Shown in pieces: positions 3,750 to 43,356 of a stretch of DNA of 64,000 bases. The notes under the pieces are model-generated. The model saw only the letters and a list, made by a program, of their open reading frames with translations, was not told the origin of the DNA and made no database searches. A program made the position numbers and the translations under genes. Position 1 is the stretch's first letter, and the number at the start of each line of letters is the position of its first letter. Origin of the DNA: Marsupella aquatica. Taxonomy: Eukaryota; Plantae; Marchantiophyta. The DNA lies in the NCBI GenBank assembly GCA_973895155.1, contig OZ316891.1, positions 9,363,875-9,427,874 on the forward strand, read 5' to 3'.

Positions 3750-6180
3750 GCAGATTGATGACTACATTTATGAAGCTTCAAGCTACCAGAGCTTCCCTCG
3801 ATATTCTTCCACGGTCTACAGTTGGAGGGATCCAAGGAAACCAACCTCACGAGTTTGCTCACCTGATGGGTATGAGGTGTGGCTCAAGTGGATATTGGAC
3901 GACTGCTCAGAGGCTGGAATCCTCCTAGTGTTATACGATGCTTTCCTCGCTTGTTAAAATTTGGTACAAGATTTAACTGAGCATGACGGGTGCCGAGTTG
4001 TACTAGTGGGGCACTGCATTGGCCGGTTGGTGATGAAAGATTTGTGCATTGCACTGGCTTCAACCGTCGGCAAACTCCAGTCTTACAACCCTGAGAATGG
4101 TGCACAATCCCTTCCTCAACTTAAAAGGTTGTCCCTCCATGAATTTCCCAAGCTCGGGTCGAACTTGGCAGATGACAGCAAAGAGCAGTGAAAGGGATTA
4201 TTATTTGAATACTTGACTGCTCTCAACTAGCTGGCAGCAGGGCGAAATGATGCTTTTCGCAAGTTACGCCCGCAATACATCAAGTGGAAAACTAAGGGAA
4301 TTGCTGAAGGTCGTGAAACAAAGTTGGTAACTTATTATTGCCTGCGTCACCCATTGAAATTAAAAAAAAGGGATCATCTCTTAAAAGTTTTCGTCGTGTT
4401 TTGGCCTACTGCTACAGAAGTTATTCTGAGGGAAGGTGGGTAACTGCTAAAATTTGCTCCAATTGCAAATTTGTTTTACATCTATTATGATTAGCGAACC
4501 TAATCATTTAAATAAAATCTTTATTTCATTTCAAATAATGAAGTTCAATGATGCTTTCCTACTGTTACAAATCCTAGGCTGGGCCACCTCGGACTTGCAC
4601 TTTGTATCCGAGTTGAGCATTTGTTTGGTACATATATCTTTCACTGGGAAAAACAACTGTCTTAATCGTTCCAGAGGCATCAGCACGGGATGAGGTGGAT
4701 GGATTTTACACTGATCCTAAAGCAGACCATTTTACTATTTGTCGACATGCGTCCAAGATATCATTCAGCTTTCAAAGGTTGCTCGAGTTCATTGCTGAAG
4801 TGTTAAGCCAGGCAACCACGTTCAAACTATGTCCCTCGTTATGCGTATTTAGTTACGATAAAGAAACTTAAGTAGTTTATTGCACCAACTTTATTGTATC
4901 CCAAGAAGGCGTTGCTTGCATATCACTAATCATATGATCTGGTCACTGATTGAAGGTAGATAAGGTTCACAGAACACACTCAAGAAAATGCCATAAAGGG
5001 CCTTCTGTTACAATTGTTTACTTTTTTAGGACTTAAGTTCTCTGCTGGTTATGTTGAAAAATATTGCTTATGTACACAGGTGGTGGTTCAAGTGTGTGTG
5101 AACTGAACAGCTGACATCTAAGTTGAGTAAATTAGATTCTAGTTTTTCCAAAGAGGGCAGAGATCTTGGCGTGCCCAACTTCGATCACAATTCAATGGCA
5201 GGGTAAGGAACGCCAAAGCCCCAAGACTGATATTCCAGCTGAAGTTGTTGGTCTCCAAGGTCAAGTCAGGACTGTCACACAGACAATTGAAGGAGTGCAA
5301 CGCCTAGGACTGGTTGGAATGCCTGCGATTGGAATTTGGCAAATGGAGTGTTGTGCACCATTCAGAGTAAGTTTCAGTACGCATGCTACGTAACCGATGT
5401 GAAGCAAATCATCTCAAACCTGAAAGATCCGAGTTTCCTTCAAGCAGAAATAAGAAGGCTGCCTTACAAGGGATAAAACATGCATCAATCGTTCAGATGA
5501 GACTGGCTGAATAGGAAGAAGGTTCTACTTAGATTGGATGACGTGGATCGTGTGACATGTTCCAAAAACTATTGATTCTGGTGTCTTGCCTGGGAGCCAT
5601 GTTATTGTCACATCACGGGACAGGGGATTCCGCCAGAAAGGATTTCAGTTCCACCTAGTGAAAGTGCTTGACCCTAAGGACTCCAAAAGACTTTTCTATG
5701 ACTGCTTTCCAAAATGAGGATTTACGAAGTTGCTACGAAGACGTTGCAGAAAAATTATACAGAAATGTGTGGGTTTGCCCCTAGCCCTAGTAGTTGCGGG
5801 CGGATACTTGTATGGGAAAGCAGATGTAGAGGTGTGGGATGACGCACTGAAGAGATTCAGGCAAACGCAGATTGCAGATGGGACCAAGAAAGACGGGCTG
5901 AGGCCAGTCATGATGACGAGTTATGAGTCGCTATCTCCTCAAGAGAAACAAATGTTTCTAGATTTCCCACTTGTTTTATGAGATGGATTAGGAACCGGTG
6001 AAACGAGCTTGGGAACAGTGTGGGTGGGCAGCTTCAATGACGCTTGGGTTGAAGAACTTAGAACGGAAAGGCTTGGTAACCATTGAGACGGTAAAACTAC
6101 ATGCATTAGTATACTCAACACGACATGCCAATCAACCCAAAAGAAATTGTTCGAATGCATGAGGTACTAGGCGATCAGGT
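3750..6180 (+). pseudogene. Alpha/beta-hydrolase-NB-ARC (HNL-type) NLR pseudogene
   Basis: Ordered fragments in shifting frames. Hydrolase: VWLKWILDDCSEAGILLVLYDA and RVVLVGHCIGRLVMKDLC (~3880-4050). NB-ARC: degenerate P-loop LGLVGMPAIG (~5300-5335), kinase-2 KKVLLRLDDV (~5515-5545), RNBS-B GSHVIVTSRD (~5592-5620), GLPL KCVGLPLALVVAGGYL (~5763-5810), RNBS-D SYESLSPQEKQMFLD (~5918-5963), MHD-like IVRMHEVL (~6146-6170). Many stops and frameshifts; no LRR seen downstream. Coding-like debris extends back to ~2744. Confidence 0.8.
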
Positions 6181-7661
6181 CTGTGAGTGTGTTTAATTGC
6201 AGTGACGACGAAAAATATTACAAAACCCAGCAGTGATTCTTTCATTCCAGAATCTTGATGTCAGAAATTTTTGGGGCCAAGCAAGATTGTACTCAGATTT
6301 TGGTGAGATTCTTAAATTCCCGAGGGGAGTCAAAAACAATCACGCGAAATAATCATAAGTTGTTGGTAACAATCAGGAAAGTAAACGAAAACAATCTTAT
6401 TCGGTTTCAATTTCAGCACCGACTTTAATCATCCTTGTATTTTCTTGCAGAGTGTCTTCTTGGTTTCCGTTGTGGTCATAGGCTTTTGATCGAGCTATGT
6501 AGTAGGGAGGAGGAATATGATTTTTTTGTTGACGGTCCTTAACTTCCCGAAACACATCAGGATCATGGATGAATTTGGAACCCGACCCCGATTGGAATGT
6601 TTTGCTGATCCGAAGATTTGAGCTCGATGTGACAATATGAGGGAAGAGGAGTACACCATTTTTGCTGATGTTTTGTGTTCAAATTGGGACAACTGTGCAA
6701 GAGTGTGGCCAGAGGTGACCTTAGTGAAGTCCTGGCAGTGCGATTGTCAGGGATTTAGTGTAGGCCTTCCCACAATTCGAAAACTCTGTTCACTTATGGT
6801 CATCCCACGAGATCTACTGTGTCTGGCTCAGCGAAAAAGCTAGAACCTCTGTCCCACGTTAAATCTCTCCTTCTCATCTTTCAAGTCCCACTTTAAATGT
6901 CCAAGATCGATGCAATTTTTGATCTATTCAATTTGGTGGATGTACAACCCCTGTCCACAACAGAAGAATCATGAACTTGAGCACAGATTTTGGCCCTTAA
7001 CAAAAGAAAACTATTCCACGATAAAAGCCAATATGACAAAATTGAACGTCACATATTAGTGACACCTGCAAAGTTAAAAGGCATGATGGAGAGTATTATC
7101 TAAGACTGTAGGACTGCAGAATAAAATCTCGGAGGACAGCTTTTTCTTGTAATTTTCTTGTGGGGGTACTCGTTGGCAGTTAATGGGCGTGGACAAGGGG
7201 TTGCTGATGGACACCTTTCTTATTGGCATAATTATGGGTATAATTCTTGCCATTAAAGGGCGAATGTAAAACAGGGAATGTACCTCTGCAGGCAGTTCAA
7301 ATGAGTGGTACAGAATACCATATAGTACGAGACGTACGTATTCATTAAGGATACTGTCACCGTACAATACATCAGGAATTGCACGTTCATCAAAATAATG
7401 CTGTTGCAATCATCCTTGTGGGGCTTTTCAAGCCACTCAGGTTTATCTCGAGAAAATGTAAAGTGCACCACATTAGCATGTCAGTTCTGCCAAACTCTCT
7501 TGATGACATAAAACCATTGGTACCGTTTTAAATTGGCTTAGCAGCTTGTACAGCAGCATATAATGTGAGGAGACGTGTCACGAGACAATTAAGGAATACA
7601 CAAAGGTTCCAATCCTGCTTTAGATTCATGTAAACCTAAGTAAATGTGTAATTATAAATAA

Positions 7662-11500: not shown

Positions 11501-12334
11501 GTTTTCTGAGAGAGTTACAGGATGCCAAGATGGGGACCCCTAAATTGAGAAGTGCTACTTAATGGACCCTATGAGGCCCCATGAGATTTTATAGAACCGT
11601 TGATTAAGGTCTATCAAGGGTATCACTCATGGGGTCCATCAAGTAAAGATTTTCATTTTGGGGGTAAAGATTTCTAGAAACTTTTTGAAAGTGAGATGGC
11701 CCGAAACTTGCAACCTCATTGCGTATGTGTTGACCCAGTACTCTTTGTCATTGTACAATAGTTCTCAGCCGTGCATCTCAACCCAGGTCAAATTTAGAAA
11801 AGCAATCCAAACTTTTAAAACTTTGGCAAGACTTTTGGACAGTCTTGATCAAATGAAAACTTTGAGTGCCCAATCTTCTTTCTTGTGCGTCTTTTGACAC
11901 AAAGATGCATGAGTTATCTCTAGTTAAGGTAATTTACCAACAACAAAAATTTTCTAGTTTTACTATTTCTGATTCCTGTTTGAAAACAAACCCAAATTTC
12001 ATGGAACGTTCAAATTTTACTTTCTTGGGAATAGCTTGTGATGACCACATTAAGAGTTTTTTGTGAACTCTAGGGGTGAAAACCGCTGTTTGGGCCCAAT
12101 GCTAATTTATTGTAAAGTCTTTGCACAGGAGTAAAGTGCACTTTGCTCCTGCAGCCCTTTATTGAGCTTTCCAACGAGAAACTTAATCATGCACTTGCCT
12201 GGCCCTCCCTTGCAAGTGCGGAGTCCCTCACAAAACTGAAGGTGCCTAGAACTCAGTGACCCCACCAGCAGCCAGAATGAGTTTCACCTCCAATCTCACC
12301 CTGTTTGCCTTTTACGGTGCCAGACGAGAATTAG

Positions 12335-12810
12335 GACTATTATCTTCACTTTTAGGCGGAACAGTCAAGGACGGAAGACTTTACTCTCTTTCATAAGTTT
12401 CCAAGTTAGATTAAATGCCCTTGCAGAGCCTTCAATGGGTATTCTCTTCCATAAATTACAGAAAAATAGACCTTCACTTTTAGGCAGAACCTACAGTAAA
12501 CTTGATTCTCTTCCATAATATAATTTTCATGCAAGTTTCCAATGATGCCCCTCACTTTTAGGCAGAACCTACAGCAAACATGATTCTCTTCCATAACATA
12601 AAATTCATGCGAGATTCTATTGATGCCTTTGCAGAGCCTCTATGGCTATTGTCTTCGGTGAATTACACAAAAAGATACCTTGCAGAACTGACAGAGATCT
12701 TTATTCTCTTCCATAAATTTCATGCAAGTTTAGATTAAATGCCCTTGCATAGCCTCTGTGGGTATTTTCTTCCACAAATTACAGAAACATAGAAAGCCAT
12801 CTGCAAGTGA
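12335..12810. repeat. Degenerate local repeats
   Basis: Recurring blocks TCACTTTTAGGCrGAAC (x3), TTCTCTTCCATAA (x4) and TTAGATTAAATGCCCTTGCA (x2). Confidence 0.6.
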
Positions 12811-15800
12811 TTTAAGTCGGTGGTGGTGGTGTTGTTGTTGTGAGGGAGGTGACCTGGCAAATTGGAGCACCCCAAGGGAATACAATAAAGGCTGGGGCCA
12901 AATGTCTGAAGGGTACTTTGAGGTGGTACAATCAACCTCAGCAGAGTGATTTGGCCACAATCCAAAAGCAATCTCAACCAGTGACTAAAAATGTGATTGC
13001 AAAAGTGCGGGACACTATGGGAGAAGCAGCTTGGTAAAAGAAACTGAAGGCACTGCAGACACCACAGGAATCACCAGTGGAGCCCAAGTTTTCGAAACTT
13101 ATACTTGCTTTATTTTTGGCAGCTAAATGTGTCAAAATGCATAAGACTATAGCCTTATAGGTGAGTGATGAAGTGGCATTAAGGGTTGACTTGTAACCAA
13201 GCACTAGACCTACATTGGGTGTCAGTTACCTACCTACTGTAGTAATATCAAACTGTAAAAAAATTAACGGAGCAGACAAAATTCCAAAGAAGGGAGAAAA
13301 CCATATAGCTCATTTACTAAGCTAATCCAAAAGGACAATTAAGCCTACAAAACTAAAGGAACAAACGTTAAGACCCCTGACCTGAAAGCAGAAAAGAGTT
13401 AAAATTGAATATATAATCTTCCTTATTTTAGCTGCCTCAGCATTTACTTATCCATATTTGTAGTATACTCTCATGATGTGCAATAATCACACACGTTACA
13501 CAGAAGTGAATGAAACTAACGCTTCGTTCGAAATCTCCGCAATATGGATCAAGACTACGGTACTTGGGTCCCTCAGTTGCCATTTCGGCATATTCTAAAA
13601 CGAAGACTCTGGTGAAAACTAGGCAAGTAGAAAACCCGACGGTGCCACCTTGCTGCAGTTTGTGCGTCTTGATCTGACGGCGGACACGTTCCCGCTTAGT
13701 TCGGGATGGAGGCTGAGACCTTCGATGCGCTGCGTCGTGACTGCGAGTTGGCGGCACCGTCGATAAAAGCCACTAAAGTTGGCGGTGATATTTCAGCGGG
13801 AAGGATAGGGGCGACTTCGGCTTTTGCGCAGAACCTTAAATAACTGTCCTGATTGATATTGATGACTGAGTTACTCGATTGGCGATTCGCACGGTGAATG
13901 TGTGCAGTCTGCTGTTATTGTTGGATTGACAATAATGGTGGGGATGCAAAATTGTTGACGACCAAAATGATGATCGCAGTTTCTGCCTTCCCCACACGAA
14001 TCGCATCTCTCGACGACCGAATTATCATTTTCTGGCTTCCCCACACGAATCGCAGGAGACAGACGCGTACGTCGATCAGCTGTACACGGTTCCGTGCCTT
14101 TCCGCAATTCCGCTCTTGCTCCTGTCCGTGGCGAACGAAGGAGGCACGCGCCAGATTGATTCCCAAATGATGTTCGCATTTATCGATCCGCCTGGGTCAT
14201 GATGGACCGATCCGCCGGCTGATGCGGAGAAATAGAGACACCGACATACAGCTTCTGTAATGTTCGTTTCTTCGCCCTGAGACCTATTTTGCATCGCCGC
14301 CATGATGAAGTTCCTTTTAGCTGTTTGGAAAGGAAAGCGTGTCCAACTGTGAGGATGCTTGAAGCGTAGCATATAACGTAATTTCGAACAGTGAATTTAG
14401 CTAATCTGAAAGGGATGAAACGAAGGATTTTGAAGTACTGTGTAAGCCATTCAGAACGAGGACGCGGTACTATATTCCTTTGTGTATCTGAACAGTTACT
14501 GTGACTCTTGTTTGTTTGTTGGCAGTTCATCTACCACTCCAGTGTCTGTATAGAGTGATGTGATGAATGCTTTGTTGGGAGCTACAACACTGAGAACGAG
14601 AGCTTCTCACTGCTAGTGAAAGGGATTATTGAATCTTGCTATAGTTGCCTGTTGTGAAGCGTATATTGTTCAGGGATGTGAGGAGTGTACGACACTGACA
14701 GGACATATTTGGTTCCGTCAGTAGCCTGCGTAATCTGGTGCATGTGCGCATCAGGGACGTGGCTCATTCCACTTTCAGTATCATCTGCCGTTGGAGATTT
14801 AAAAATACAGTCATGAGTTCTAGCTATTAATTCAAGTATCAAACAAGCAATCATGTCCCCGTCAGAAAAGACATGCAAAAACCAGCACTGTATAGCGGAA
14901 TGTCGAGATCGACACAAGCGGTGAACTCACCGTCAGAATTGAAAGACCTGCAAAACGTAGTGGTCCTGTTTGCAAGATCAGAAGTGCTCAGTGGAATGTC
15001 AAGGTCGAAACCAGGCGATGGATACAGGCCAACACAATTCGGAAATGAAACAGGAGTGACAGAGTGCTCGCACTGGGCATCGCAAAAGGAAAATCAATCT
15101 AATCTTTTCACTACAATAACTAGATCACGGTTACTTTGCTTGCCCAATAGAACGTTCACTGTGAAACCAAAAGACAGACTTATCGAACCCGAGTCTACGG
15201 AAATTGGCTCCTAACAAACGGCCAAGCATGTTATGCTGCAGGTAACATGGTAGTTCCTGTGTTCCTCCAATGGCTGTCAGCGCCGCATAACGCTCTCGTT
15301 TGTTTGTTTACCTGCAAGGCCATCGGATCGTCGTTGGCATACACTGTACAGTAGTACAGCGTAGTTTGGCCCTATTGAGTCCTGAGTCCTGACCACTCTC
15401 CAGACTCCAGAAGTCCAGATTGCCATTCGGATATTTGGCTAGAGGGCAGACTCCGCCACTCCGGACTAGAATAGGTGAGGATCTAGCCGTACTGTCCCAG
15501 ATAGTTTCCTAGAAACCATTCTTCGGAGCGTAATAATAGTTCACGGTCTGGCTGTGGTCTTTGTGGACTTCCCGGCTGGGCGGCGGACTCCTACAGATTG
15601 GAATTGCCAACCGTGAGAAGGATAAAACTTTTAGACGCTCTTCTACAAATCGTACACACACACAGTCTCCCATAAAGAGGAGTGCGGAGGAACTCCCGTT
15701 CCAGGGCCACAGTTAGATCGAGCTCACTGGCACTTCCAGCCTCCAGGTTCTGAAATCATAGAAAAATTAGTAGGAAGCGCATCCAGCAAGGTTCAAAGGG

Positions 15801-16242
15801 CACCACCCTGCTAATATTTTTTGCTAGTTTCAGAGAACAGGTTTGCAACAGTACCACATACCCTTTTGTGGGCTCCCATCCTTGTTAAAGCGTTTCTTGA
15901 ATCTCTGTATGAGTGAGTGAGGAGCTTGGAGCTTGGAGAAATGCGTCGGGATGGATCCGTTGCTATCATTGCATGCACGAGTAGAATCCAGAATTTTGTA
16001 GAGTTTTGAGCTAGTGGTGAAGGGAAGAAAATAGTCTCAAGCAGAGACAACTTTGGAATGAGTTACAGTAGCTCTTGCCCTGAACAATGCAATCCCGAGA
16101 GAGTGAGAAGAACGGAGTGGAATAGATGGGCGCGAGTAGAGAGAGGTGAGAAAAAATTTGAGAGATGAGCTGTGGAAGGAAGTTAGTAACCAGAGAACAG
16201 TCGAAGTTTTTGGAGCTTGCTCAGTGAGATAAGGGACGAAAA

Positions 16243-19200
16243 ATGCGTCGCTCTTTGCAATCGAAATGGGGGAGCTGTCTCTTGATTTTGGTGTTGTTTA
16301 TCGTCAGCTGCATCAGCTGGTCCGAGTGCGTAGCAACTTCGTCGGAGGATGAGAGGAGTGCTCTACTCGACATCAAACATGCGTTGGGTGTAGGAAACGG
16401 TGCTCTTTATGGTTGGTCCCTGACTCAAGGGAACTCTACCCCGTGCGCTTGGGAGAGAGTCATCTGTGACAACGTCACTAATGTGCTGGTTGGGCTCAAC
16501 CTCACTCATCTGGGCCTGGCCGGCACGATTTCTGCTTCCGTTGGTAAGCTGGAGAATTTGCGCTTTTTGGACATGAGTGACAACAATGTCACCGGGGTAA
16601 TTCCCGCAGAAATTGGAGATTGCTTGAGCCTTCGAATGATAGATCTTTCCGGCAACTCCTTGGTTGGAGAAATTCCCATTTCCTTTCTTAAGTTGAAGCA
16701 GCTCGAGGTCCTGGCATTGCACTCGAACCTTCTTTTTGGTCCCATACCGGACACGCTGTCACGGCTTCCAAATCTCATGACTTTGAACTTGGCTTACAAC
16801 AACTTGTCTGGAGAGATACCAGCCTTGCTCTACTGGAGTCAGACGCTGGAAATTCTGATGTTGAGGGGTAATTTTCTGACAGGGGAGATATCTCCGGACA
16901 TTTGCCAGCTCACGAATCTCTGGTATTTCAACGTGCGTGAAAACAATCTCACGGGGCCCATCCCCACCAACATCGGCAATTGCAGCTCCTTCGAAATTTT
17001 GGACCTCGGATACAACCAGCTGACCGGTGAGATTCCTCGAAATTTTGGCTTCTTGCAGGTGAGCACTCTGTCGTTGGAGAACAACAAGCTGACAGGGAGG
17101 ATACCTGACGTTCTTGGATTGTTGGAAGCGCTGCTTATTCTGGATTTGAGCAATAATCAACTCGAGGGTCCCATTCCAACTTCGTTTGGAAATCTTGTCT
17201 ACCTCAACAAGCTCTACTTGCAGGAGAATCGACTGACAGGGATCATTCCCCCCGTTCTTGGCAACATGACACGGCTGCAGTATTTGTTGCTAGATGATAA
17301 TCAGTTGACTGGGCCTATACCTCCCGCGCTTGGCAATTTGCAGCTTTTCGAGTTACGCCTCGCTGGAAATCGGCTCAGTGGTGGCGTACCTGTCAGTTTA
17401 AGTTCTTGCACGTCACTCAATAAGCTGGATTTGCATGGAAATTTGCTGACTGGTGAGATTCCCCAAGAACTGGAGAGGTTGGACAATCTGACCCACCTGA
17501 ACCTCTCGACCAATTACCTCACTGGCGGTATACCAGACCAGCTCGCCAATGTCATCAATCTTGACACATTGGACTTGTCTTTCAACAACCTTAGCGGTCA
17601 CATTCCTTCGTCTTTGGGCAAGCTGGAGCACTTGCTGTACATCTCTCTCTCGGAGAATCACCTTGGCGGAGTAATACCACCGGAGTTTGGAAATTTGTCA
17701 AGTCTCATGTATCTTGACGTTTCTCATAATAGTTTGTATGGAGGCATACCACTCGAGCTCGGTCACTTGCAACAGCTCAACACTCTCCTTTTGGAACACA
17801 ACAACCTTTCGGGGCTCATCCCCCAGGAGCTAAGCGGATGCATCATGCTGAGCACCATGAATGTCTCCTACAACGACCTCGGTGGCAACATCCCTTTTGC
17901 CAACAATTTTTCTAGATTTCCTCCTTCTAGCTTCCTCGGAAACCCCAACCTCTGTGGTGGTCAACTCAGCCGTGCGTGCAGCTCTTATCATCTGAAAGCT
18001 GCGTCTGCTGTTGGAGCAACCACCATATGGATTGTCACCGCAGTGGCTGTATGTCTATTGGTGGTCGCCATGTTTGCCATCTTCAAGTCTTCTCAGCTGA
18101 GACGGCCAGTGAAGACAGTGGACATGAGCTTTGAAGGTCCTCCACGACTTATAATGTACCACATGGGGATGGTCACCGAGTCATGCGAGGAGTGGGTGAG
18201 AATCACAGACAATTTAACGGAGCAGAGTTTGGTGGGGTCAGGGGCGTCCAGCAAGGTTTACAAGTGTACGCTGAAAAGTGGACAGGCCGTCGCCATCAAG
18301 AAGCTCTACAACCACCATCCACAGAACATTCAAGAGTTCGAGAACGAGCTGCAAATGCTGGAGAAGATCAAGCACAGGAACCTTGTGACCCTGCGAGGGT
18401 ACTCCCTCTCCTCCCTGGGGCACTTCCTGCTCTACGACTACATGGAACTCGGCAGTCTCTACGATCTCCTCCACGGTTCTGTGAGGAAGGTAAAGCTGGA
18501 CTGGAGCATTCGGCTGAACATAGCGTTGGGAGCTGCCCAGGGCCTTGCATACTTGCACCATGACTGTGCTCCTCGGATTGTACACCGCGATATCAAATCC
18601 GGGAACATTTTGCTGGATGCCAATTTGGAGCCCCACATTTCCGACTTCGGCATTGCCAAAAACATTCATATGTCGAAGGGTCACACCTCAACGAACGTCA
18701 TGGGCACGATTGGGTACATTGATCCAGAATATGCTCGCACCTCAATGCTCACCGAGAAGTCGGATGTGTACAGCTATGGGATTGTGCTGTTGGAGCTGCT
18801 CACGGATAGGAAGGCGGTGAACAGCGAAGGCAATTTGCTCAGTTGGGTTATGCAAAAAGTGAGCTGCAACACTGTCTTGAGCAGTGCAGTGGCTCCGGAG
18901 GTCGGGTCTACTTGCTCGAACTCCAAGTCCATTGAGAAGGTGTTCAAGCTGGCACTGCGTTGCACTGACAAGAACCCCAACGTCAGGCCGACCATGTATG
19001 ATGTTGTTGAGGTGCTGCTCTCCCTTATCTCTGGCCCAGTGCCCACTAATCAGTCCAATTTCATGCCCAAGCTCTCAAGCTCCACCGACAAGCAGTACGT
19101 TGATATGTTTGTGAATCCGATGTATTACAAGGACAGTCTGGGCAGTGAAAGCCTCTCCGACGTCCGGTTACTGGCAAAATTTGGAGAAGTCATATCATAA
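16243..19200 (+). CDS. ERECTA: ERECTA-family LRR receptor-like kinase (LRR-XIIIb), 985 aa, single exon
   Basis: Signal peptide, LRR N-cap (CAWERVIC), about 20 LRRs including the ERECTA-diagnostic stretch LYWSQTLEILMLRGNFLTGEISPDICQLTNLWYFNVR...IGNCSSFEILDLGYNQLTGEIPRNFGFLQVSTLSL, TM helix, juxtamembrane GPPRLIMYHMGM, intact kinase (GSGASSKVYK, AIKKL, HRDIKSGN, DFG, GTIGYIDPEYARTS) and ERECTA-type tail DVRLLAKFGEVIS. Confidence 0.95.
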   Translation: MRRSLQSKWGSCLLILVLFIVSCISWSECVATSSEDERSALLDIKHALGVGNGALYGWSLTQGNSTPCAWERVICDNVTNVLVGLNLTHLGLAGTISASVGKLENLRFLDMSDNNVTGVIPAEIGDCLSLRMIDLSGNSLVGEIPISFLKLKQLEVLALHSNLLFGPIPDTLSRLPNLMTLNLAYNNLSGEIPALLYWSQTLEILMLRGNFLTGEISPDICQLTNLWYFNVRENNLTGPIPTNIGNCSSFEILDLGYNQLTGEIPRNFGFLQVSTLSLENNKLTGRIPDVLGLLEALLILDLSNNQLEGPIPTSFGNLVYLNKLYLQENRLTGIIPPVLGNMTRLQYLLLDDNQLTGPIPPALGNLQLFELRLAGNRLSGGVPVSLSSCTSLNKLDLHGNLLTGEIPQELERLDNLTHLNLSTNYLTGGIPDQLANVINLDTLDLSFNNLSGHIPSSLGKLEHLLYISLSENHLGGVIPPEFGNLSSLMYLDVSHNSLYGGIPLELGHLQQLNTLLLEHNNLSGLIPQELSGCIMLSTMNVSYNDLGGNIPFANNFSRFPPSSFLGNPNLCGGQLSRACSSYHLKAASAVGATTIWIVTAVAVCLLVVAMFAIFKSSQLRRPVKTVDMSFEGPPRLIMYHMGMVTESCEEWVRITDNLTEQSLVGSGASSKVYKCTLKSGQAVAIKKLYNHHPQNIQEFENELQMLEKIKHRNLVTLRGYSLSSLGHFLLYDYMELGSLYDLLHGSVRKVKLDWSIRLNIALGAAQGLAYLHHDCAPRIVHRDIKSGNILLDANLEPHISDFGIAKNIHMSKGHTSTNVMGTIGYIDPEYARTSMLTEKSDVYSYGIVLLELLTDRKAVNSEGNLLSWVMQKVSCNTVLSSAVAPEVGSTCSNSKSIEKVFKLALRCTDKNPNVRPTMYDVVEVLLSLISGPVPTNQSNFMPKLSSSTDKQYVDMFVNPMYYKDSLGSESLSDVRLLAKFGEVIS

Positions 19201-21804
19201 CAATGCTTTAAATCATTCGTCATCGACACCTGCGGCTGAATTGGAGTCATTCATGTTCCGTTCAATTTGGTCTCTTCTAGCCCAGTCGCTGTAATATAGA
19301 CAGTGAGTACAGTTGTGTAGCAACACTTCCCTCATTTTTCTGCAGAAAGAGTTTTGTAATATACACTTCACTTCGAACTTTTGAAAGGAAACACTGTAGA
19401 GCAGTTATCTCTTGTGAATAAGAAGAATTTTCGATTCCTATCTGTGTTGCTTTTTCATATAGTTGATTGCTTGAAGGACGTGTAAATGGGTTGGACGAAT
19501 GCAGGATAAAATATTGAGGTGTTGACTGGCGTCAACTTGTATTCCTCCCTTTCTCCGTCTCTCGTTCTGTAGGTTGACAGTGTTGGGAACCAGGCATCTT
19601 TAACTCAATGTCTGATTCCTCTCTGACATCAACCACGGAAAGAAAGAGACCTTCGCCAGGGCTCAAAATGGTAAGTTCCTGTTCCGTCTAATTCTGCTGA
19701 GAACTATTTTGTAGAATTCTTCTAATTGAACTTTTAGCAATCCCAACACTCGCAATGATGTAGACTTTCAACATGTTGGAGTTGGATTTGGACTTCTCTG
19801 CCCCTCCAGTCTTGCTTTTATGTCAGTGTCTACTTTCTTCAAGCATTCATGCGTTTCTACAGAGTTTGGAGACTTTGTATGCTGTCTGCTACGGAAGTGT
19901 ACCTATCTTCAAGCTTACTTTTGCCGGCATTTGGATTCGTTTGATGTTAGATTCAGTTTGCTCAATCACTTGTACTGTGTCTCCAATGATCTGAGTTACG
20001 ATGCAATCTTTTGGGCTCGCGATGAATATCTATCCAATTCCCCGTGTCCTCCTTGTTTCGTACTTCAGCCTTGGAACTAACACAATCATTCTCTGGGTCG
20101 GATCTCCATTGATTGGGTGTTCCATTAAATTGTGCTATGAGCTGAGCTGGCTGTCGCTCAGTTCCACGAACGTGCGGGGAACAATAGCAGTCTGTTCGTT
20201 CTATGCAAATGCTTACAGACACCAAATGTTGACCTTAGTGTTTACATAACCTAGCATGCCCTAGACAATATAGTTTACCACTAAAATCATGGTAAATGTC
20301 CTTACAAGCCTCTTTCGATAGGGCATGACATGTTGTTGGCTATTTTTCATGGCTAAGGCCATCAATGTCCTTCGCCCCACTTTGGAAATCTGCTTGGACC
20401 CCTTATACCACCACCCCACTTTGTACATAGGCTTGAACCCTTAAACCACCACTGGTCATATGAACTTACGACACCATCTGCCATCGATATAAATGGAAAA
20501 GTGTCCAATACTTTCCCCTTAAATCACTTTGGAAACTGTTCAAGACTTCCCTCTTAAATCACCATTGGCTTGGACACCTGTTCGTCACCCTTACCCTCAA
20601 AGTATCAATTGGGAGTGAAGGGGAAGCCAGGCCTTCCACTCTGCTTCAATGCCCTTAAATCAAGTGGATGTGGGTTGACTGAATACTAGCCTTAGCACTC
20701 TTAATTTGCTCGAAGCTTAGCCCAGAGGAAAATGATGTTAAATGAAAGCTCTCTGGTCAGCCACTCTTGGGCCATAATTTAGGACACTAATGGCTATGTC
20801 CCTTGTAGCAACTGACTGCTACACATCAGTCATGGTTACATGCTACCTTGCCATAGCTGTTTGCAACACTCCCAGTCTCATTCTGGCCTGCGCAACACTA
20901 GGATGTCTTCAAACCCTTGTTAGGAATGAAAGACAGGTTTGGTGACCAATTCAACTTTTAGCCCAATTGAACTACCGTTCACAAATATCTTAGCCCCTAC
21001 ATTCATTTTCAGCCTAATCTTATGACTTTGAAAACAACTTACCCCCAACAACATTGATGTTGGCTCAAACTATTTTTTTAACTAATTTTACATGCGAACG
21101 AGAAAAAGGCCAATCTAGTAACAGGATAAGGAACTTTATTGGCTTCATCCTGAAGCCCCACGTATGAATGAATGAAAATAATTAAAGTCGTCCTGTATTC
21201 AATCAGGCACTGACTAACTACGACCTGAGAGTTGATGGCAAAAAATTAGAGTGGGCAGCAACTGTACTACTCTTTAGAATGTGAAATCAGCATCTTTCAT
21301 CTCAAGTAGAGGGGTCTGACGACCTTCGCTTTTTTCGCTGACAAGAATTGACATACATATTGACCTACAGCAAAGCTGGGCCTGGTGGTCGTTACCATTG
21401 TGCTGCATATATCTCTGCTCATAGAATCCTCACTGCGTAGAAATGTTCGTTCACAAACTCACTTTCTTGAGCCAACCTGTGAAGTCTGACAAACTTGATG
21501 ATCGGCAGGATTCTCTACCAGAGTCTGCTCGTTGGTGTGACGTTTACCCTGATTCTCCTCCTCCATCTACTTCTCCAGAATTAATTGTTGCTCCAACAAT
21601 ATAACAAACCATCTGGGCTTCCTGCTTTTTCAGTTTGGACCCACCGAAGGCTTTACAGCAACTCTAAGCAGCACATCAATCAACTCTTCCAAAGAGAATT
21701 AGAGAAACGTCCCATGACCTTCCTGACAACAAGCTCTGAACAAAGGATGACAGGTTCAACCTTTCACATCAGTGTGGAGAAGTTCACGGACGATCAGATT
21801 TTCT

Positions 21805-22956
21805 TTCCGCAAAGCTAAGACAGCGCCGATCCAACTTCTTTAGATGTTGGGAGCAGCCCAAGTGACACAATATGAGCAACACAGTTTGACAATTGAGGTC
21901 AAATTGTGTTGGGAGTGCTGTAATGAAATCACAATTACGTATACATGCATACACTTCCTATGTACCTGCCTTAAGGAAGGTAGCCAAGATATCTTATCAA
22001 CCACTTCTGTACCTTAACTCCGTACTTACTGACCGGAGTTTCCTGGACATATTTCCAGACATCAAAATGCAGGGGACAGATTGACTCTTGCACTGCACTC
22101 TAGGTACTGCCGTGGTGTTTACCTGCAATGGGCATCTCCAATTCAGCAACTCAATGCCACAATCGAGTAGCATCCTTCCAGCATCATTGTCAACTGCCTC
22201 GACTATTGTTCTATTTCGATGGAAGGAATCAACTTGCTCTAGACGGGCCAGTCACTTCTAGAATCATCAGTGTCACATGATTTTGATCAAGTACAGCTTT
22301 CTGCATGGCTTCAAACGCTTCTGCTACAGAAAATGATGAACACAGGGCCCCAGTTCGTTATTAAAGTGCACCCACCCAAACCCAAACAGGTACACACGAC
22401 AGTTCCTTTGTGTCTGGCTAGCAAATTTTAACTGGGCCAAGTTGTCAAACTCAACTCAATCTTGTCAAATCCAGGAAAGCAAGAGCCGATTCCTTCTCAT
22501 TTGATTAGCCAACGGCTAATCTATATCAGTGGTGTCTCACGGTAGTCATGGCGTGTGAAGGTCCAAGACAATCAAACCCCGAATTTCTGATTTAGGTCAC
22601 AGAAGTGTCCAAAGTCTTGAAGCTACAAGTCCCCAGGAACTGCATGCCATTCTCTGCCATTATACATGAAAAAGTTTCCTCCAGTAGCTACCACAGAATT
22701 GTATCTTTTCGGAGCAAGTCCTGGACGAAGTACCCACAACTTTTGCAAGTCTCCAAACATCTTGGTGCCGGTCTGGTCTCCCGACATTATTCTGGACGAA
22801 CAACATCTTCAAGGGAGGGTTGTACCAGAATCTTGAGAGAGGCTCCAATGCAGTCTTTAAAATCAGGGGACATAGAGTGTTGATAACACACTTAGATGGT
22901 CTTCTGCCTCCGATAAATATCATGCTATCAGCAATTGTCGCAGTTGTATGCGGCAT
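21805..22956 (-). pseudogene. Decayed Kelch and TYW2 (Met-10-like) parts of a plant TYW2/3/4 gene
   Basis: Immediately after the stop at 22957 the same frame continues MPHTTATIADSMIFIGGRRPSKCVIN (Kelch repeat). Further down are frameshifted TYW2 pieces: GNMSxKLR...EVVD (~21995-22055) and VAHIVSLGLLPTSK/SWIGAVLALRKE (~21805-21882), matching the plant TYW2 motifs GNLSEKLR...EVVVDL and VADRVNLGLIPSSEGSWVTAIQALRPE. Large internal deletions. Confidence 0.75.
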
Positions 22957-23856
22957 TTACGACACCGGGCTGGTACCTGTCTCGAGAGAATTGATTCTCA
23001 AGATAACTTTCGATTGTCTCGTTTGAAGGCTTGACAAAAGCCTGTCTCGAACATCTACACTTATCCCTTTCCTCCGCCTATGCACTCCTTTCTGGCCCAG
23101 TCCCTTCACCGACCCAGGAGGCGTGCTGACCGGCTGAGCTATTTCCCCATCAAATTGGACAACAAAAGTGGACGTGAATCTACTAATGCGTTCCTGGTTC
23201 AAGATGAATTTTTTATTGGCAGATTCTGTGAGGAAAGTAAGATACTCTTCGGGCACTAAAAGCTTCCCTTTCTCCCCAATGGGTACTTCCAGACGAATGG
23301 AGGTGCGGACAGCAACTATTATCCGCTTCCCTACGCTCGAGATTCCTGATTCCCGGTAACCTGACGCCATGGCACAGGCCAAAAGTCGTTGAGCAGCGGC
23401 CAACGACGAGCACTCCAGAGCCAGAATGAAGGGCTCAAATCGAAACACCAACAATCCGTCCTGCTTGGTCTCCTGGTACAGTCTTCTCACAGTGATCAAA
23501 ACCTCATCGATTTTGGCCGCCTCATGACTGACATAAATCCAGCTTCCTCCTTGCTTGACTTTGGTTCTCGCTCCTGAGTTCTCCTCCCCCACGGCTTGGT
23601 AAGGATCTGAGCTAAGGAGCGCAGCGGACTGCTCCAGAAAAATGGAGACACGGCCTGAGCAGGAGCTGGTGGTGAAAAAGGATGGGTGAGAATTGATGCA
23701 GCTGATGAGATCTGCAATGGGGGCATCCACACCACCTTTGCGAGATTTATCGTTGTCATCTAACATCAAAGTCTTCAGTACCACCTCCTTGCGTATGTCG
23801 AATTCCCTCTGGCACGTCATTTTTCGCTGCTCTGCTGTGCCTGACTGTATACACAT
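22957..23856 (-). CDS. TYW3: tRNA wybutosine-synthesizing protein, TYW3 methyltransferase domain (truncated TYW2/3/4)
   Basis: 299-aa ORF with TYW3 motifs FDIRK, DKSRKGGVDAPI, FFTTSSCSGRVSI, WIYVSHE, FRFEPFILALEC, ASGYRESGI, IVAVRTSIRLEVP and ANKKFILNQERI. The start may be the second ATG (23820). Functional status uncertain. Confidence 0.8.
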   Translation of the reverse strand: MCIQSGTAEQRKMTCQREFDIRKEVVLKTLMLDDNDKSRKGGVDAPIADLISCINSHPSFFTTSSCSGRVSIFLEQSAALLSSDPYQAVGEENSGARTKVKQGGSWIYVSHEAAKIDEVLITVRRLYQETKQDGLLVFRFEPFILALECSSLAAAQRLLACAMASGYRESGISSVGKRIIVAVRTSIRLEVPIGEKGKLLVPEEYLTFLTESANKKFILNQERISRFTSTFVVQFDGEIAQPVSTPPGSVKGLGQKGVHRRRKGISVDVRDRLLSSLQTRQSKVILRINSLETGTSPVS

Positions 23857-24411
23857 TACTTTTGGTCAAGAGAATTCCGGGATCCCACGACAATTCTTTT
23901 GGAACCAAAGTCACACAATCTACCATTTAATTCATTCTCCCACAATGAAACCTAACTTAAAACCTAACCGTCATCCAATGTGCCATCTTCGGACTGTCAC
24001 TAGTCGTTCAGAATTAAATCAGACTGTCCCCAATTCCCAGATGTGGAGCATGAGAAGAATTTCACCGTGATTCCTAGAGGTCTCAGTCTTACAGTAAGCG
24101 ATTCCAGTGAAGCAATTCTTCACTCTCTGATTCTCGAAAGACTTGAAGTTTCTCACCGTCAAGATTTCACCAATTCAATCAAGGAATAATTCATTATGAC
24201 GACGATACCAATGTTTGCACTCTTTCTCTACTGATTCTGATCAAATTGAAGCCAAGGGAAATAAACAATGCATGAGCTATCAGGAACTTACCCAAAGGCA
24301 TTCTTCTTCTGTCAATGTAACGCTTGGGAGGCAGAAAGAAACCTTAAACCCTAGACCCTAGACCCTGGGAGACAGATTCCCTTTCAGTAGCCCACTCCAA
24401 AGTACTGTACT

Positions 24412-24579
24412 GTAGTTTGTTCATGTATAGGATATGGGAGGTCTGGTCTGGGGTTACTAGCCTGGTAGTAAAGTAGTTTGTTCATGTATAGGATATAGGA
24501 GGTCTGGTTTGGCTTTACTAGACTGTACTATAGTTTGTTCATGTATAGGATACAGGAGGTCTGGTCTGGGGTTACTAGA
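24412..24579. repeat. Tandem repeat, ~57-61 bp x3, upstream of TYW3
   Basis: TAGTTTGTTCATGTATAGGATAyrGGAGGTCTGGTyTGG...TTACTAG repeated three times. Confidence 0.85.
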
Positions 24580-26216
24580 GTGTAACTCCCTCTCATCAGA
24601 AAGTGAAGAAAACCTGATGGACGGCCAAGGGGAATATATTCTGAGTTTTCTTTGGAGGAGGGTTCAGGCTAGAACTTCATACCAGACCTCCTTCATAGTA
24701 CCTAATTTCTTCCCGAAAGAAGGTTACTTCCAGGCAACAGATTATGTGAATAGCAAGTGTGGCCCAAAATGTTTACATGTAGGTGCCTCCTCTCAAAATG
24801 TTTACATGTAGATAACCTGTTTTCCGGACAGAATTTACTTTCCCAGTCCTCCCTTCCAAGTGTCCCCTCTTGTATTTACATACCTGTTGGCTCCTCCCTT
24901 ACTTTTCCCCCTCCCGTCCATATGTATGTTCCTAGGTATTGTGACTTAGTTACCTAGCTTACGGCCATTTGACTACACGCACTACAAGTGACCGAAGTGG
25001 CAAAATGTTTGCATTAGCTCAGTGCGCACTTAGGTTGTTTTTTTCCCAAATCTTCACTCATCATGAATTTATTTTTTGTGAGTTTGTGCGAAAATATTTT
25101 TGAGCGAAACATCATAATATTTGACACTCCAACAATTTGCTCATATTGTCGTCAGAGGCTCTCTTAGGTAGAGGAAAATGTGACAAAATTTGCTAAATTA
25201 CATATTTTGTGGAAGCCCCTGGCACAAAAGATGTGATGGAAATTTAGTTTATCAATAAGCTTATTACACACTCAAGTTTTATTTCGGGAGTCCCTTCGTA
25301 CGTCTTGGTTCCAAATAAAATGTGACTTGTAAGGGCTAAGGAGGGACTTGTAAGGGCTAAGGAGGGTTAGGTACCCATCAGGTTTCCAAATGAAAATATG
25401 ACTTGTAAGGGTTAAGTAGGTTTACCCATCTTCTGTTTTGTTTGTCATAATTATGTGCTATTGAAATGTAAAGTCGAGATTTCAACTAAGTTGTTTGATT
25501 ATTCTTTTCTCTCTTTGTCATGTTATGCAGTCCTTCGCTTTCATACTTTCCTATTCACTTTTTAAAGATTCTTTCCTCCTTGTTAACTTAAAAAGTTTAG
25601 TCAGGGTTTCCAAGATGCAAAATAAAATCATGTTCGCCCTGAAATGGAAACAGGCAGGTGGGCAACATCTGAGTGGGACCCATGGGATAGTAATAAATGA
25701 GTTCCCAGCAACCTTCAACGTGAATAGGTTGGAGGTGCAAGTAGGTTATGCCATTTGAGACAACATTGTCACCTGAGTAGGTTCTGTGTGTGTGTGAGGG
25801 GGGCAGTAGATTACGACATTCAGGACAACACTGTCACCATGCGAAGCAAGCAACTGAAACTATATGGTCACAACCTACAAGTATTTTGAAGCTTGTGACC
25901 ATGCTATTCCTGGGTGGGGTCCAGATTTGGGGTTACAGTTGACCTCGTGCGACATTGGGGGCCACACTATCATCACAGTCATATAGCTTTGGTTGTGAGG
26001 AAATAACCAGGGAGATGACCAAACATATGTGGTCACATCAGGGATTCAGGCTGAACAATATGGTCCTGACAACATCGTGTACAAGACATTGTGGGGCCAT
26101 TTTTTATAATATGGTTTCAGACAATACGGTTTGGGGCCATTTTCAGGCCCCCTCACTTTGTTCAACTGAACTAAAGTTCAGCCAATAACTACAATATGTA
26201 GTTGCAAAGGAGCATG

Positions 26217-39704: not shown

Positions 39705-39994
39705 GTGCAGAACATAAACTTAAACAAACGCCATAAACCCTGAACATGTGCAGAACATAAACTTAAACAAATGTTGTAAACCCTGAACATCATGTGCAGA
39801 ACATAAACTTAAACAAATGCCGTAAACCCTGAACATGTGTAGAACATAAACTTAAACAAACGCCGTAAACCCTGAACATGTGCTGAATATAAACTTAAAC
39901 AAACTATGTAAACTTAAACAAAGAGAGATTTGCAGAACATAAACTTAAACAAACTTTGTAAACTTAAACAAAGAGAGATTTGCAGAACATGAAC
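39705..39994. repeat. Intronic tandem array (~43-bp then 50-bp units), about one AACATRAAC motif per unit
   Basis: GTGCAGAACATAAACTTAAACAAAyG..rTAAACCCTGAACAT x4, then two 50-bp variant units. Confidence 0.9.
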
Positions 39995-41360
39995 CTGTTC
40001 AGGTTGTTGGTAAATGTCTGTGTCCTCATGGACTCCGGTTGGTTGTCCTCCTTTCGGCTCTGTTTCTTCATGTTGAAGCAGTTCCAAATGGTCAATGCCA
40101 CCCATCAAAGTACCAAACCTGGACCCTAATTGTTGTACTAGAACACCTCCATCGAAGCCTCTAAATAAGAGAGCCTTGATCTGATGTTTACACATATTTC
40201 CCTCATCCGCCCATTTACAATCACAAGAAGGAAAGTTTGAGAATATATTCTGAACAATGTGCTCCTTCCCATCAGGCTTGCCACTTCTTACTATTGCTTG
40301 GTTGGGCAGGCTTGGATCAGGAAAATAGACTTTGTGGTATTTCATGGCATGCATGGCCTTGTGGAGGCTATTCAGGACAACCTCTTCCTTTTTGTAATTG
40401 ATAATTCTCCCCCTTGCTTTGCACCAAAGCTGGTACCAAAAGAAAGGAAGCATAACCTGGAACAAAGAAGTGACAACCCTGTCTAGACGCAGAGCTCCAA
40501 TGGACCCAATATTCCTCTTGATCATCTTCTTGAATGTTAAATGCCAAGCTTCAATTGCACCATTTGTATTCTGGTTGGCTCGAGGCATGTCTCAAACAGC
40601 CCTCATCCACTTTGCTGTGATTCCACAAATGCATAAAAACAATAATTAGTTGTAATCATGAGAAAACTCCAAGAAATATGCTTTACTCATTGCAAGGACA
40701 AATGAGTAGGAGGTCAGCAGAACGTGAACCTGTTTTGTGCATCCAAGTGTCTTCAAAATATGCTAGGAATCGTTGTTCCATGTGGTACTTTGCTTGGAAG
40801 GATCGCCACTTAACTTGCATGTCTTCCTCAGTATTGGCGTACATGGATCCCCTAGATCATCATTCATATCCAGAAGCTTGGTTCTATTTGGTACAATCTT
40901 GATCAAATTCTCCTTCCAAGCTCTGTATACAGAAACACGTGAGTGGGTTGGGCAGAACATAAACTTCATACGGCTAGTTACAAATGTGGTAACATTACTT
41001 GCAACACAAAATGTTTTCAATGTGGGAAAACATACCATCGAACATGCCAACTGCAAAAATAAATGGGGATATTGGGAAAGACAACTTTCAATGCGCTGAC
41101 TTCAGCTTGAGCACAGTCAATAATGAAGCAGCTAGGACTCCAATCAGGTTTTTGCGCCAACGCTGTATCCTTTATTGCCTTCAAAAAAGTAGCAATGTGC
41201 TCAGCTGATTCAGACTACTGGATGCACCATGCTATGGGTAATCCCATCTGGTGTTGATCAAAAGCAACGAGCGTGAAGAAAGGGAACTGCAACCGCACTG
41301 GGGTTAGAAAGGCGGAACATGAACTAGGAGATAAATTAAGTCAACTACATCGTGTAGTGA

Positions 41361-41890
41361 CATGGGCAGAACATGAACTATAATACTAGAAACAAGATAT
41401 ATGAAGAGCCAAACATGAACTACAAGACAAAAAATGAAATAGGTCACATGGGCACAACATGAACTATAATACTAGAAACAAAATATATGAAGAGCAAAAC
41501 ATGAACTACAAGACAGAAAATGAAATAGGTCACATGGGCAGAACATGAACTATAATACTCGAAACAAAATATATGAAGAGCAAAACATGAACTACAAGAC
41601 AGCAAATGAAATAGGTCACATGGGCAGAACATCAACTACAAAATATATGAAGAGCAGAACATCAACTACAAGACAAAAAATGAAATAGGTCTTATGAACA
41701 AAACATGAACTATAACACAAGGGATAGACACAACAAACATATGAAGAGGGCAGAACATGAACTACAACCCAGACACAAAATGAAGTCAATTGCATGGTGA
41801 AAAAGGTGTGATGGGCAGAACATGAACCATAATTGAAGGAACAAACACAAGAAAACATATGAAGAGGGCAAAATATGAACTATAAGACAT
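41361..41890. repeat. Intronic tandem array (86-bp unit, two AACATGAAC motifs per unit)
   Basis: Units start CATGGGCA at 41361, 41447, 41533 and 41619, then degenerate copies to ~41890. Confidence 0.9.
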
Positions 41891-43356
41891 GGAATGTAAT
41901 GAAATGGACATCCTGAGGAGATGAAATGCTAATTACATACCCCATATTTATTAGTTGCAAACGTACTATCTAACGCCAACACTGATCCATGAGATAGGGT
42001 GATCATCTGCGCTCTTTGCCAAGGTGACTGCAATGAAAGTATGAAATCCTGCTTTGGTGGGCCCGCCATGTACTCTTGTGAGAGAAGCACTCTCTCAGGA
42101 TACATCCCCATCCATTTGCGTATCGATGCCTGGTCATTGTCAGACCATAGCCAGGTCTCCTTGTCAACTTTTCGTTTGAGTTTTCGAAGATCTTGTTTAG
42201 AAACCAGGTCGTCTCTCCCATCAAAAGTTAGTGTCACACCAGGATCAGTGGTATTGTGTCCACAATCATCACCATCTCTTTCAAACTGCGATTGACAGTG
42301 GAGGTCATAAATATCAAGGACGGACCATCCTGCCCTCAATAAGTCCTCAAGGTGCTTCTGGACCTCTCTGGTCAACCATGGAGCAATGGTGCATTTTGGT
42401 CCCCAAGAGGGAGGCCCCAATTGTGGATCCCAATGGCCATGCACAATGTCCCCTCTCTGATTACAATGCTTTCTGCAATTGAAACACAGACAGAACATAA
42501 ACCACTACATACAAATGTGATGGTAGAGAGTAAAAACAACTATGTTGCACAAAATTAGGCAGAACCTAAACTTTAGCACATAAATTCATGTGAACATGGA
42601 CCCTGAAAGAGACTTGTCCGAGTAAGCATAATTAGACAGAATGCATCCTTGCCTGTTTATGTAGGAGAGCTGAACAACATCAGGGTTGGCTTTCATCCTC
42701 TTCGCAATGAAGTGACACCGACATCCTCGCTTGACATGGTTGTTGAATGCATTCTTACGTAGTCTAGGTCTACTCCCAACTCCTGATGTTGGTTTTGTTC
42801 CAGGAAGTGGAGGAATAGCTACGCTACGCATGTCTTCCTCTTGTGGGCCATAGGAACACCAAAAGATGGTATATTCTATCCAATCAGTGTTATTTGAATT
42901 AGATTTTCTTGAGGTTCTAATATGAAATGAACTCTCAAATTTTGGATCCTTTCTGCCCTCGCCATCTCTAAAATCAGTGAGACGGTTCCATGGAATGAGA
43001 GCTTGGTCATATGGGCTCCAAGCAATGTGTAGCGACGAAAATTTCCCAGCCGGTGGAATCTGTACGTACTCCCATGTTTCATGAATCATTGGATTACGCA
43101 AAGGCTCCCAACAATTATCCTGCCACGACGGTGGTAGAACATAAACTACAAGACAAATATTTCGGGTACAAAACTCACACCGCACGATTGGGTACAAAGC
43201 GCGTGCATTTGCATTGCAAGGGCAATTGAAAAAAAACGACGTGTTTGCACAGTAGTACCACCAACACAAAGACAAAGAGCACATGAACTGACAAATAACA
43301 GAAACATTTAGGGGGAAATGAAATCGGTGGAAATGAATAGCGTCATAACATGATAT

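What the first reader, a model, noticed from the sequence alone, without database searches (positions are those of the whole stretch)
16243..19200. Intact ERECTA-family receptor kinase with no introns
Seen: one uninterrupted 985-codon ORF from signal peptide to the FGEVIS tail, with all kinase motifs intact, in a window where other host genes are intron-rich. Known: ERECTA-family genes are unusually intron-dense (26 introns in Arabidopsis ERECTA), and those introns are needed for ERECTA mRNA accumulation in Arabidopsis. Inference: this is a functional retrogene or a case of wholesale intron loss that escaped intron dependence. No poly(A) tract or TSD is visible, which suggests an old event.
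Basis: partly seen in the sequence, partly recalled or inferred. Interest (0 to 1): 0.7.

Follow-up and report, generated by a model that had tools for sequence, protein, structure and literature searches.

The report
Liverwort ERECTA lost all 26 introns
This leafy liverwort carries an intact ERECTA growth-receptor gene with no introns in its coding region, as Marchantia does, so liverworts likely shed long ago all 26 introns that mosses and vascular plants keep and that Arabidopsis needs to express the gene.

Summary
In detail: 16243-19200 is one unbroken 985-codon ORF, genomic in independent DNA contigs. It is the ERECTA-family (LRR-XIIIb) orthologue of a leafy liverwort: 88% identical to a Calypogeia fissa protein and 65% to Marchantia's. 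Trees place it in a liverwort clade (100/100) that follows the species tree. It is under purifying selection (pN/pS about 0.12). It is not peculiar to this genome. A 2018 supplementary table lists the single Marchantia polymorpha gene (Mapoly0070s0019.1) with 0 introns, against 25-27 in six Physcomitrella genes; the authors preferred to blame low counts on incomplete annotation. That model is full length, and this second liverwort class shows the state is real. Best reading: one ancient, precise, probably mRNA-mediated loss on or near the liverwort stem, not a recent retrocopy. No parent at 80% identity or more was seen. Expression, hornwort and Haplomitriopsida structures were not testable. 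The scan had not noted this before. Known family, datum already in print but unrecognised; moderate interest.

The parts
16243..19200 (+). ERECTA-family LRR receptor kinase CDS, single coding exon, 985 aa plus stop
16243..16335 (+). predicted signal peptide (aa 1 to about 31)
   Evidence: hydropathy peak at window starts 9-14; cleavage point inferred
16345..16470 (+). LRR N-terminal cap (LRRNT_2, aa 35-76)
   Evidence: Pfam PF08263, E 9.2e-07
16486..17892 (+). about 20 plant-type LRRs (aa 82-550), collinear with ERL1/ERL2 ectodomains; liverwort-shared 1-aa deletion near aa 366
   Evidence: (5XKN, 634 bits, aa 37-583)
18025..18081 (+). predicted transmembrane helix (aa about 595-613)
   Evidence: hydropathy maximum 2.89
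18220..19017 (+). RD-type Ser/Thr kinase domain (aa 660-925); T817, T822, Y825, Y830 match the spacing of Arabidopsis T807, T812, Y815, Y820
   Evidence: Pfam PF00069/PF07714; motifs; residue numbers from PMC5441908 passages; mapping by spacing is my inference
19180..19200 (+). conserved C-terminal FGEVIS motif and stop

Best explanation
This is the intact ERECTA-family receptor kinase gene of a leafy liverwort, with no intron in its coding region, and it likely lost all 26 ancestral introns in one ancient event, probably through a reverse-transcribed mRNA, before leafy and complex-thalloid liverworts split. Shown: the unbroken ORF, family membership, orthology to the Marchantia gene, purifying selection, gap-free former junctions. 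From a paper: Marchantia's gene has 0 introns, moss and lycophyte genes 24-27. Inferred: a cDNA replaced the intron-bearing gene, either by gene conversion in place or as a retrocopy whose parent was then lost (not separable here). Also inferred: the gene is expressed without coding introns, and the protein works as other ERECTA receptors do, binding an EPFL-type peptide outside and signalling by its kinase inside, in a non-stomatal role, since liverworts lack stomata, TMM and EPF1/2.
For: Orthology: kinase-domain tree (36 rows) and full-length tree (30 rows) both give a liverwort clade at 100/100, split into leafy and complex-thalloid groups, inside the ERECTA clade (97/98 and 100/100); all 6 full-length liverwort proteins share a 1-aa LRR deletion absent from all 16 non-liverwort rows. 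Shared state: Table S2 of PMC5902711 gives Mapoly0070s0019.1 a 2,949-base CDS and 0, against 26 for Arabidopsis ER; 2,949 bases equals the 982-aa protein MARPO_0070s0019 plus stop, which aligns over aa 32-981 at 65%, so the model is complete. Ancestral state: subfamily XIII-2 has a 26-intron structure shared by Physcomitrella, Selaginella, Arabidopsis and rice (PMC5296948 section 11); moss ORFs that run into introns mark five junctions (near aa 541, 589, 631, 745, 868) that are contiguous here. Precision: no indel attributable to a junction. Locus-specific: SEC10 and ALMT nearby stay split. Selection: 26 synonymous and 10 non-synonymous changes, no stop, among 36 coding sites; pN/pS 0.12, p 1.6e-9. 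No close parent; one ERECTA-family gene counted in Marchantia.
Against: Gene structure is known for only two liverwort lineages (this window with its near-identical relatives, and one table row for M. polymorpha); I did not see the genomic DNA of C. fissa, M. paleacea or Riccia. Two independent losses are therefore possible. The liverwort+moss branch is only 92/87 and 92/88, below the starred threshold. No poly(A) or target-site duplication remains, so the mRNA route rests on precision and completeness alone. A parent under 80% DNA identity would be missed, and one search lists only the best 120 of 5,478 hits. The variant list was 40 of 60 rows.
Confidence: 0.78

Rival explanations
1. Independent losses: leafy liverworts and Marchantia each lost all ERECTA coding introns separately, or the introns went a few at a time along the liverwort lineage.
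For: Only two lineages have a known structure. Table S2 also lists a Pinus taeda gene with 1 (2,493-base CDS), so low counts may recur.
Against: Needs two complete, precise losses of 26 introns, while neighbouring genes keep theirs and the other 120 of the table's 122 genes have 10 or more. The liverwort genes form one clade with a shared indel.
Confidence: 0.1
2. The intronless state is ancestral for ERECTA and the 26 introns were gained in other land plants.
For: Other long-ectodomain LRR-RLK subfamilies are intron-poor (X 0, XII 1, XV 0). Liverwort+moss support is not decisive (92/87, 92/88).
Against: Mosses and vascular plants share the same positions. With liverworts sister to mosses (gene trees here; Setaphyta, recalled) this needs identical parallel gains. 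The related subfamily XIII-1 has 12 conserved introns.
Confidence: 0.05
3. A recent functional retrocopy sitting beside an intron-bearing parent elsewhere in this genome.
For: Complete, precise intron absence is what retroposition gives; a copia element lies 25 kb away; the TYW neighbour is not beside ERECTA in Marchantia or Riccia. The whole genome could not be searched.
Against: Run X1, read whole, gave 10 records at 80% or more: one identical full contig and nine partial ones, the seven listed being 35-47 bases at LRR or kinase motifs. The tree follows species, not duplication. Marchantia's only copy is intronless too.
Confidence: 0.05
4. A processed pseudogene or an assembly made from cDNA.
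For: No RNA evidence could be obtained here.
Against: pN/pS 0.12, no stop or frameshift among the listed variants; 88% identity over 988 columns to C. fissa; continuous genomic contigs in two studies.
Confidence: 0.02

Closest known systems
Marchantia polymorpha ERECTA (Mapoly0070s0019; called Mp4g14620 in bioRxiv 10.1101/2023.10.27.564390, the identity of the two tags being my inference)
   Same: Orthologue; 65% identity over aa 32-981; same 1-aa LRR deletion; single family member; 0 introns in Table S2 of PMC5902711.
   Different: Other liverwort class; Marchantia lacks the FGEVIS ending kept here and in Riccia-like form; TYW gene is on another scaffold.
Calypogeia fissa protein CAM6124468.1
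   Same: 88% identity, full length, sister in both trees.
   Different: Unnamed in its source; its exon structure was not seen.
Arabidopsis ERECTA / ERL1 / ERL2 (LRR-XIIIb)
   Same: Same architecture; ERL2 and ERL1 ectodomain structures are the best PDB matches (634 and 622 bits, next family 516); activation-segment Thr/Tyr spacing kept.
   Different: 26 introns each, reported essential and additive for expression (Karve et al. 2011, seen only as cited in PMC5902711, PMC5296948, PMC3744415); act with TMM and EPF1/2 in stomata, which liverworts lack.
Moss ERECTA genes (Physcomitrella, Sphagnum, Ceratodon)
   Same: Sister clade in both trees; 56% identity for Sphagnum.
   Different: 25-27 introns in six Physcomitrella genes; intron read-throughs visible in Sphagnum- and Ceratodon-cluster ORFs.

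Membership tests
ERECTA family (LRR-RLK XIIIb / XIII-2) | Kinase domain groups with ER/ERL to the exclusion of FEI (XIIIa) and other RLKs | tested here: met
   ERECTA clade of 25 rows at 97/98, 11 outgroup rows apart; full-length 100/100
ERECTA family (LRR-RLK XIIIb / XIII-2) | Signal peptide, cap, about 20 LRRs, one TM helix, RD kinase, collinear with ERL1/ERL2 ectodomain | tested here: met
ERECTA family (LRR-RLK XIIIb / XIII-2) | Catalytic and activation-segment residues; conserved short C-terminal motif | tested here: met
   VAIK, HRD, DFG, GTIGY, DPEY, T817/T822/Y825/Y830, FGEVIS; the usual STY is STN here
ERECTA family (LRR-RLK XIIIb / XIII-2) | 26-intron gene structure, proposed as a key character in PMC5902711 and PMC5296948 | tested here: not met
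   0 coding introns. This is a trait of moss and vascular members, not of the clade: the accepted Marchantia member also lacks it
ERECTA family (LRR-RLK XIIIb / XIII-2) | Binds EPF/EPFL peptides and signals through a MAPK cascade | not testable with these tools
   no ligand sequence or assay at hand
Retrogene (retrocopy) | Precise loss of all parental coding introns | tested here: met
Retrogene (retrocopy) | Intron-bearing parent elsewhere in the genome | tested here: inconclusive
   none at 80% or more in run X1; whole genome not held
Retrogene (retrocopy) | Poly(A) remnant and target-site duplication | tested here: not met
   no A/T run of 7 or more in 15001-21000; target-site duplication not searched by a tool, none expected at this age
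Retrogene (retrocopy) | New genomic position relative to the ancestral locus | tested here: inconclusive
   only one neighbour tested; TYW is unlinked to ERECTA in Marchantia and two Riccia species, which reflects general loss of synteny

The most novel reading that the evidence does not exclude
All liverwort ERECTA genes descend from a single retro-event on the liverwort stem that replaced the 26-intron gene, and the intronless gene has since acquired coding-sequence or UTR features that make it stable without coding introns; this would be a natural, very old escape from the intron dependence of Arabidopsis ERECTA, possibly tied to the loss of stomata, TMM and EPF1/2, and would give a direct handle on why that mRNA needs introns.
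Probability: 0.35. Interest if true: 0.6.

Novelty: new member of a known kind. Interest (0 to 1): 0.4.

Why it matters
Papers treat the 26-intron structure as a fixed character of ERECTA genes and link it to the intron dependence found in Arabidopsis; the one intronless entry was not discussed and low counts were put down to annotation. A second liverwort class with the same state shows that a whole plant lineage runs this receptor without coding introns. That makes a cheap test possible: do liverwort ERECTA coding sequences accumulate as mRNA in Arabidopsis, and does intronless Arabidopsis ERECTA accumulate in Marchantia? The answer tells whether the dependence sits in the sequence or in the host's RNA surveillance. 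The protein itself is an ordinary family member.

Tried and rejected
Whole-genome search for a parent: no genome held. Expression: no RNA holder listed among 9 runs; this is no evidence either way. Genomic DNA of relatives from metagenome contigs: 3 loci, 29-36% identity, LRR part only, not ERECTA; not used. Synteny by the TYW neighbour: unlinked in Marchantia (scaffold 137 against 70) and in both Riccia species (different contig lengths, tags 5,500-6,300 apart), so it cannot separate loss in place from retroposition. ERECTA nested in a TYW intron: rejected, the TYW remnants end near 21.8 kb. Search of 50% representatives: one single-stretch full-length hit (P0007), otherwise other LRR proteins; used only for 8 unnamed, long-branched outgroups. 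Karve et al. 2011 is not held. Ten paper searches showed no title or read passage that discusses an intronless liverwort ERECTA; only listings were seen for most hits, and subscription papers and bioRxiv supplements were not searched, so it may be in print. No hornwort structure was found. Pfam scans of 148 short frames in 1-27 kb found only an NB-ARC fragment and one sub-threshold hit. Earlier scan notes: three bacterial LRR findings, unrelated; none by words.

Full report
Observation. The ORF at 16243-19200 (+) is real and unbroken: 985 codons from ATG to TAA. Pfam finds LRRNT_2, LRRs and a kinase. The best solved-structure matches are the ERL2 and ERL1 ectodomains (634 and 622 bits over aa 36-583; the next family, GSO1, 516 bits). 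All kinase motifs and the FGEVIS end are present. A hidden in-frame intron is excluded. Over aa 70-575 and 640-930, 10 of the 14 vascular-plant proteins aligned differ from it only by a 1-aa deletion near 366 and a 1-aa insertion near 880; the other 4 (Adiantum and three ER-clade rows) show one further 1-aa gap each. Where the observation check says 11 and 3, these counts of 10 and 4 are the ones that one search gives. The DNA is genomic: one 13,433-base contig of run X1, which may be the source of the window, matches 12000-25068 with no difference, and run X3 from another study covers 16276-17345 and 17399-18914 in gap-free contigs. ALMT (4 frames) and SEC10 (5 pieces) later in the window are split, among 125 selected frames scanned. 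The claim holds for the coding region; UTRs are untested.

What it is. The closest protein is from the leafy liverwort Calypogeia fissa (88%), then Marchantia and Riccia (62-65%), then lycophytes, ferns, mosses and seed plants (50-56%). Among the best 120 listed of 5,478 hits there are four liverwort clusters, one each for C. fissa, Marchantia (two species), R. sorocarpa and R. fluitans. A kinase tree of 36 rows and a full-length tree of 30 rows, both from rows I chose, put the gene in a liverwort clade (100/100) within the ERECTA clade (97/98; 100/100), with leafy and complex-thalloid subgroups and mosses as sister (92/87; 92/88, not starred). Outgroup branches are long. All six full-length liverwort proteins share the 1-aa LRR deletion. 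It is the orthologue of the Marchantia gene, not a stray duplicate.

Is it functional? Contigs of three related runs differ at 60 sites passing the filter, 40 shown, 36 in the CDS: 26 synonymous, 10 non-synonymous (two in one codon, counted apart), no stop; the only two indel rows lie upstream of the ATG. With 714 synonymous and 2,241 non-synonymous sites this gives pN/pS 0.12, binomial p 1.6e-9. Expression could not be examined.

What is already in print. PMC5902711 (passages; supplement Table S2 read whole) lists 122 ERECTA-family genes. The column is headed 'No. of exons' but gives 26 for Arabidopsis ER and the text uses it as intron number. MpERL (Mapoly0070s0019.1) has a 2,949-base CDS and 0; six Physcomitrella genes have 25-27; Selaginella 24 and 27; one Pinus taeda model has 1. 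The text says all members contain multiple introns and prefers incomplete annotation as the cause of low counts. For Marchantia that does not hold: 2,949 bases is the 982-aa protein plus stop, aligned to this gene over aa 32-981. PMC5296948 (section 11) reports the 26-intron structure shared by moss, lycophyte, Arabidopsis and rice, with no liverwort sampled. Moss ORFs called on unspliced DNA or RNA run into introns at five places (near aa 541, 589, 631, 745, 868 of this protein; reading them as introns is my inference from the break in homology), all contiguous here. The intron dependence of Arabidopsis ERECTA (Karve et al. 2011) I saw only as cited by others. Ten searches showed no discussion of the liverwort state (listed under Tried and rejected); the library lacks most subscription journals.

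How it came about. Shown: complete and precise absence of coding introns, confined to this gene among its neighbours. From print: the same state in Marchantia, 24-27 introns in mosses and lycophytes. Inferred: one loss before the two liverwort classes split, hundreds of millions of years ago (age recalled, from no call). Precise loss of all 26 at once points to a reverse-transcribed mRNA, by conversion in place or by a retrocopy that outlived its parent. I could not separate these: the TYW neighbour is unlinked to ERECTA in Marchantia and Riccia, and no poly(A) run survives. A recent parent is unlikely: run X1, read whole at 80% likeness, gave one identical contig and nine partial records, the seven listed being 35-47 bases long. 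An old, diverged parent would escape this test, though Marchantia is counted with a single member and a preprint passage calls it the pro-orthologue of the three Arabidopsis genes.

How it works. By family knowledge it is a plasma-membrane receptor for EPF/EPFL-type peptides with an RD kinase; the four activation-segment residues that matter in Arabidopsis (PMC5441908 passages) have counterparts at the same spacing. Liverworts lack stomata and have lost TMM and EPF1/2 (preprint passage), so a non-stomatal growth role is the likely one; this is untested. Why it can do without coding introns is open. The CDS has GC3 of 63%, and a possible non-coding exon lies at 19573-19670; either could matter, neither is shown. 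The dependence may also simply be particular to Arabidopsis.

Verdict. Observation confirmed; interpretation partly supported. This is an ordinary ERECTA orthologue whose unusual gene structure is shared with Marchantia and already tabulated, though unrecognised. What this window adds is a second liverwort class, which turns a suspected annotation error into a probable lineage-wide, ancient loss. New member of a known kind; interest 0.4.

Noticed in passing
window 21836-23856 (-): The neighbouring TYW gene keeps an intact 299-aa TYW3 ORF, followed in order by short, stop-containing remnants of the Kelch and TYW2 parts (22995-22864, E 1.7e-05; weaker pieces to 21836, E 0.1-5). In Marchantia and Riccia the fusion is 998-1,082 aa; no long Calypogeia hit was among 101 listed. 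It may be a fission or decaying duplicate of TYW2/3/4.
   Followed up: partly
window 19573-19670 (+): Possible non-coding exon 370 bases after the ERECTA stop: one of the two strongest of 14 acceptor-like sites on the + strand and a GTAAGT donor 98 bases later; a weaker donor at 19303. May be chance; needs RNA.
   Followed up: partly
window 43908-46871 (-): Copia-type retrotransposon pol (integrase, RVT_2) split over three frames.
   Followed up: no
window 39914-43452 (-): Fragmented transposase-like ORFs, one with a weak SWIM zinc-finger match (E 7e-04); MULE-like by recall.
   Followed up: no
window 49099-53608 (+) and 58602-63493 (+): Intron-containing ALMT gene and SEC10 exocyst gene.
   Followed up: partly
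window 5718-5978 (+): Isolated NB-ARC fragment (E 6.6e-08), with no long ORF around it; likely a decayed NLR.
   Followed up: no
window 18694-18696 (+), aa 818: The activation segment reads STN where 19 of the other 21 aligned proteins have STY or a like residue at this column by eye (Tyr in nearly all, Phe in one Selaginella row); C. fissa keeps Tyr.
   Followed up: no
PMC5902711 Table S2: A Pinus taeda ERL model is listed with 1 intron and a 2,493-base CDS: a partial model or a separate retro-event.
   Followed up: no
protein P0272: An unnamed 204-aa metagenome fragment groups with the leafy-liverwort ERECTAs (98/94) and runs through the last canonical intron site; whether its contig is DNA or RNA is unknown.
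   Followed up: partly
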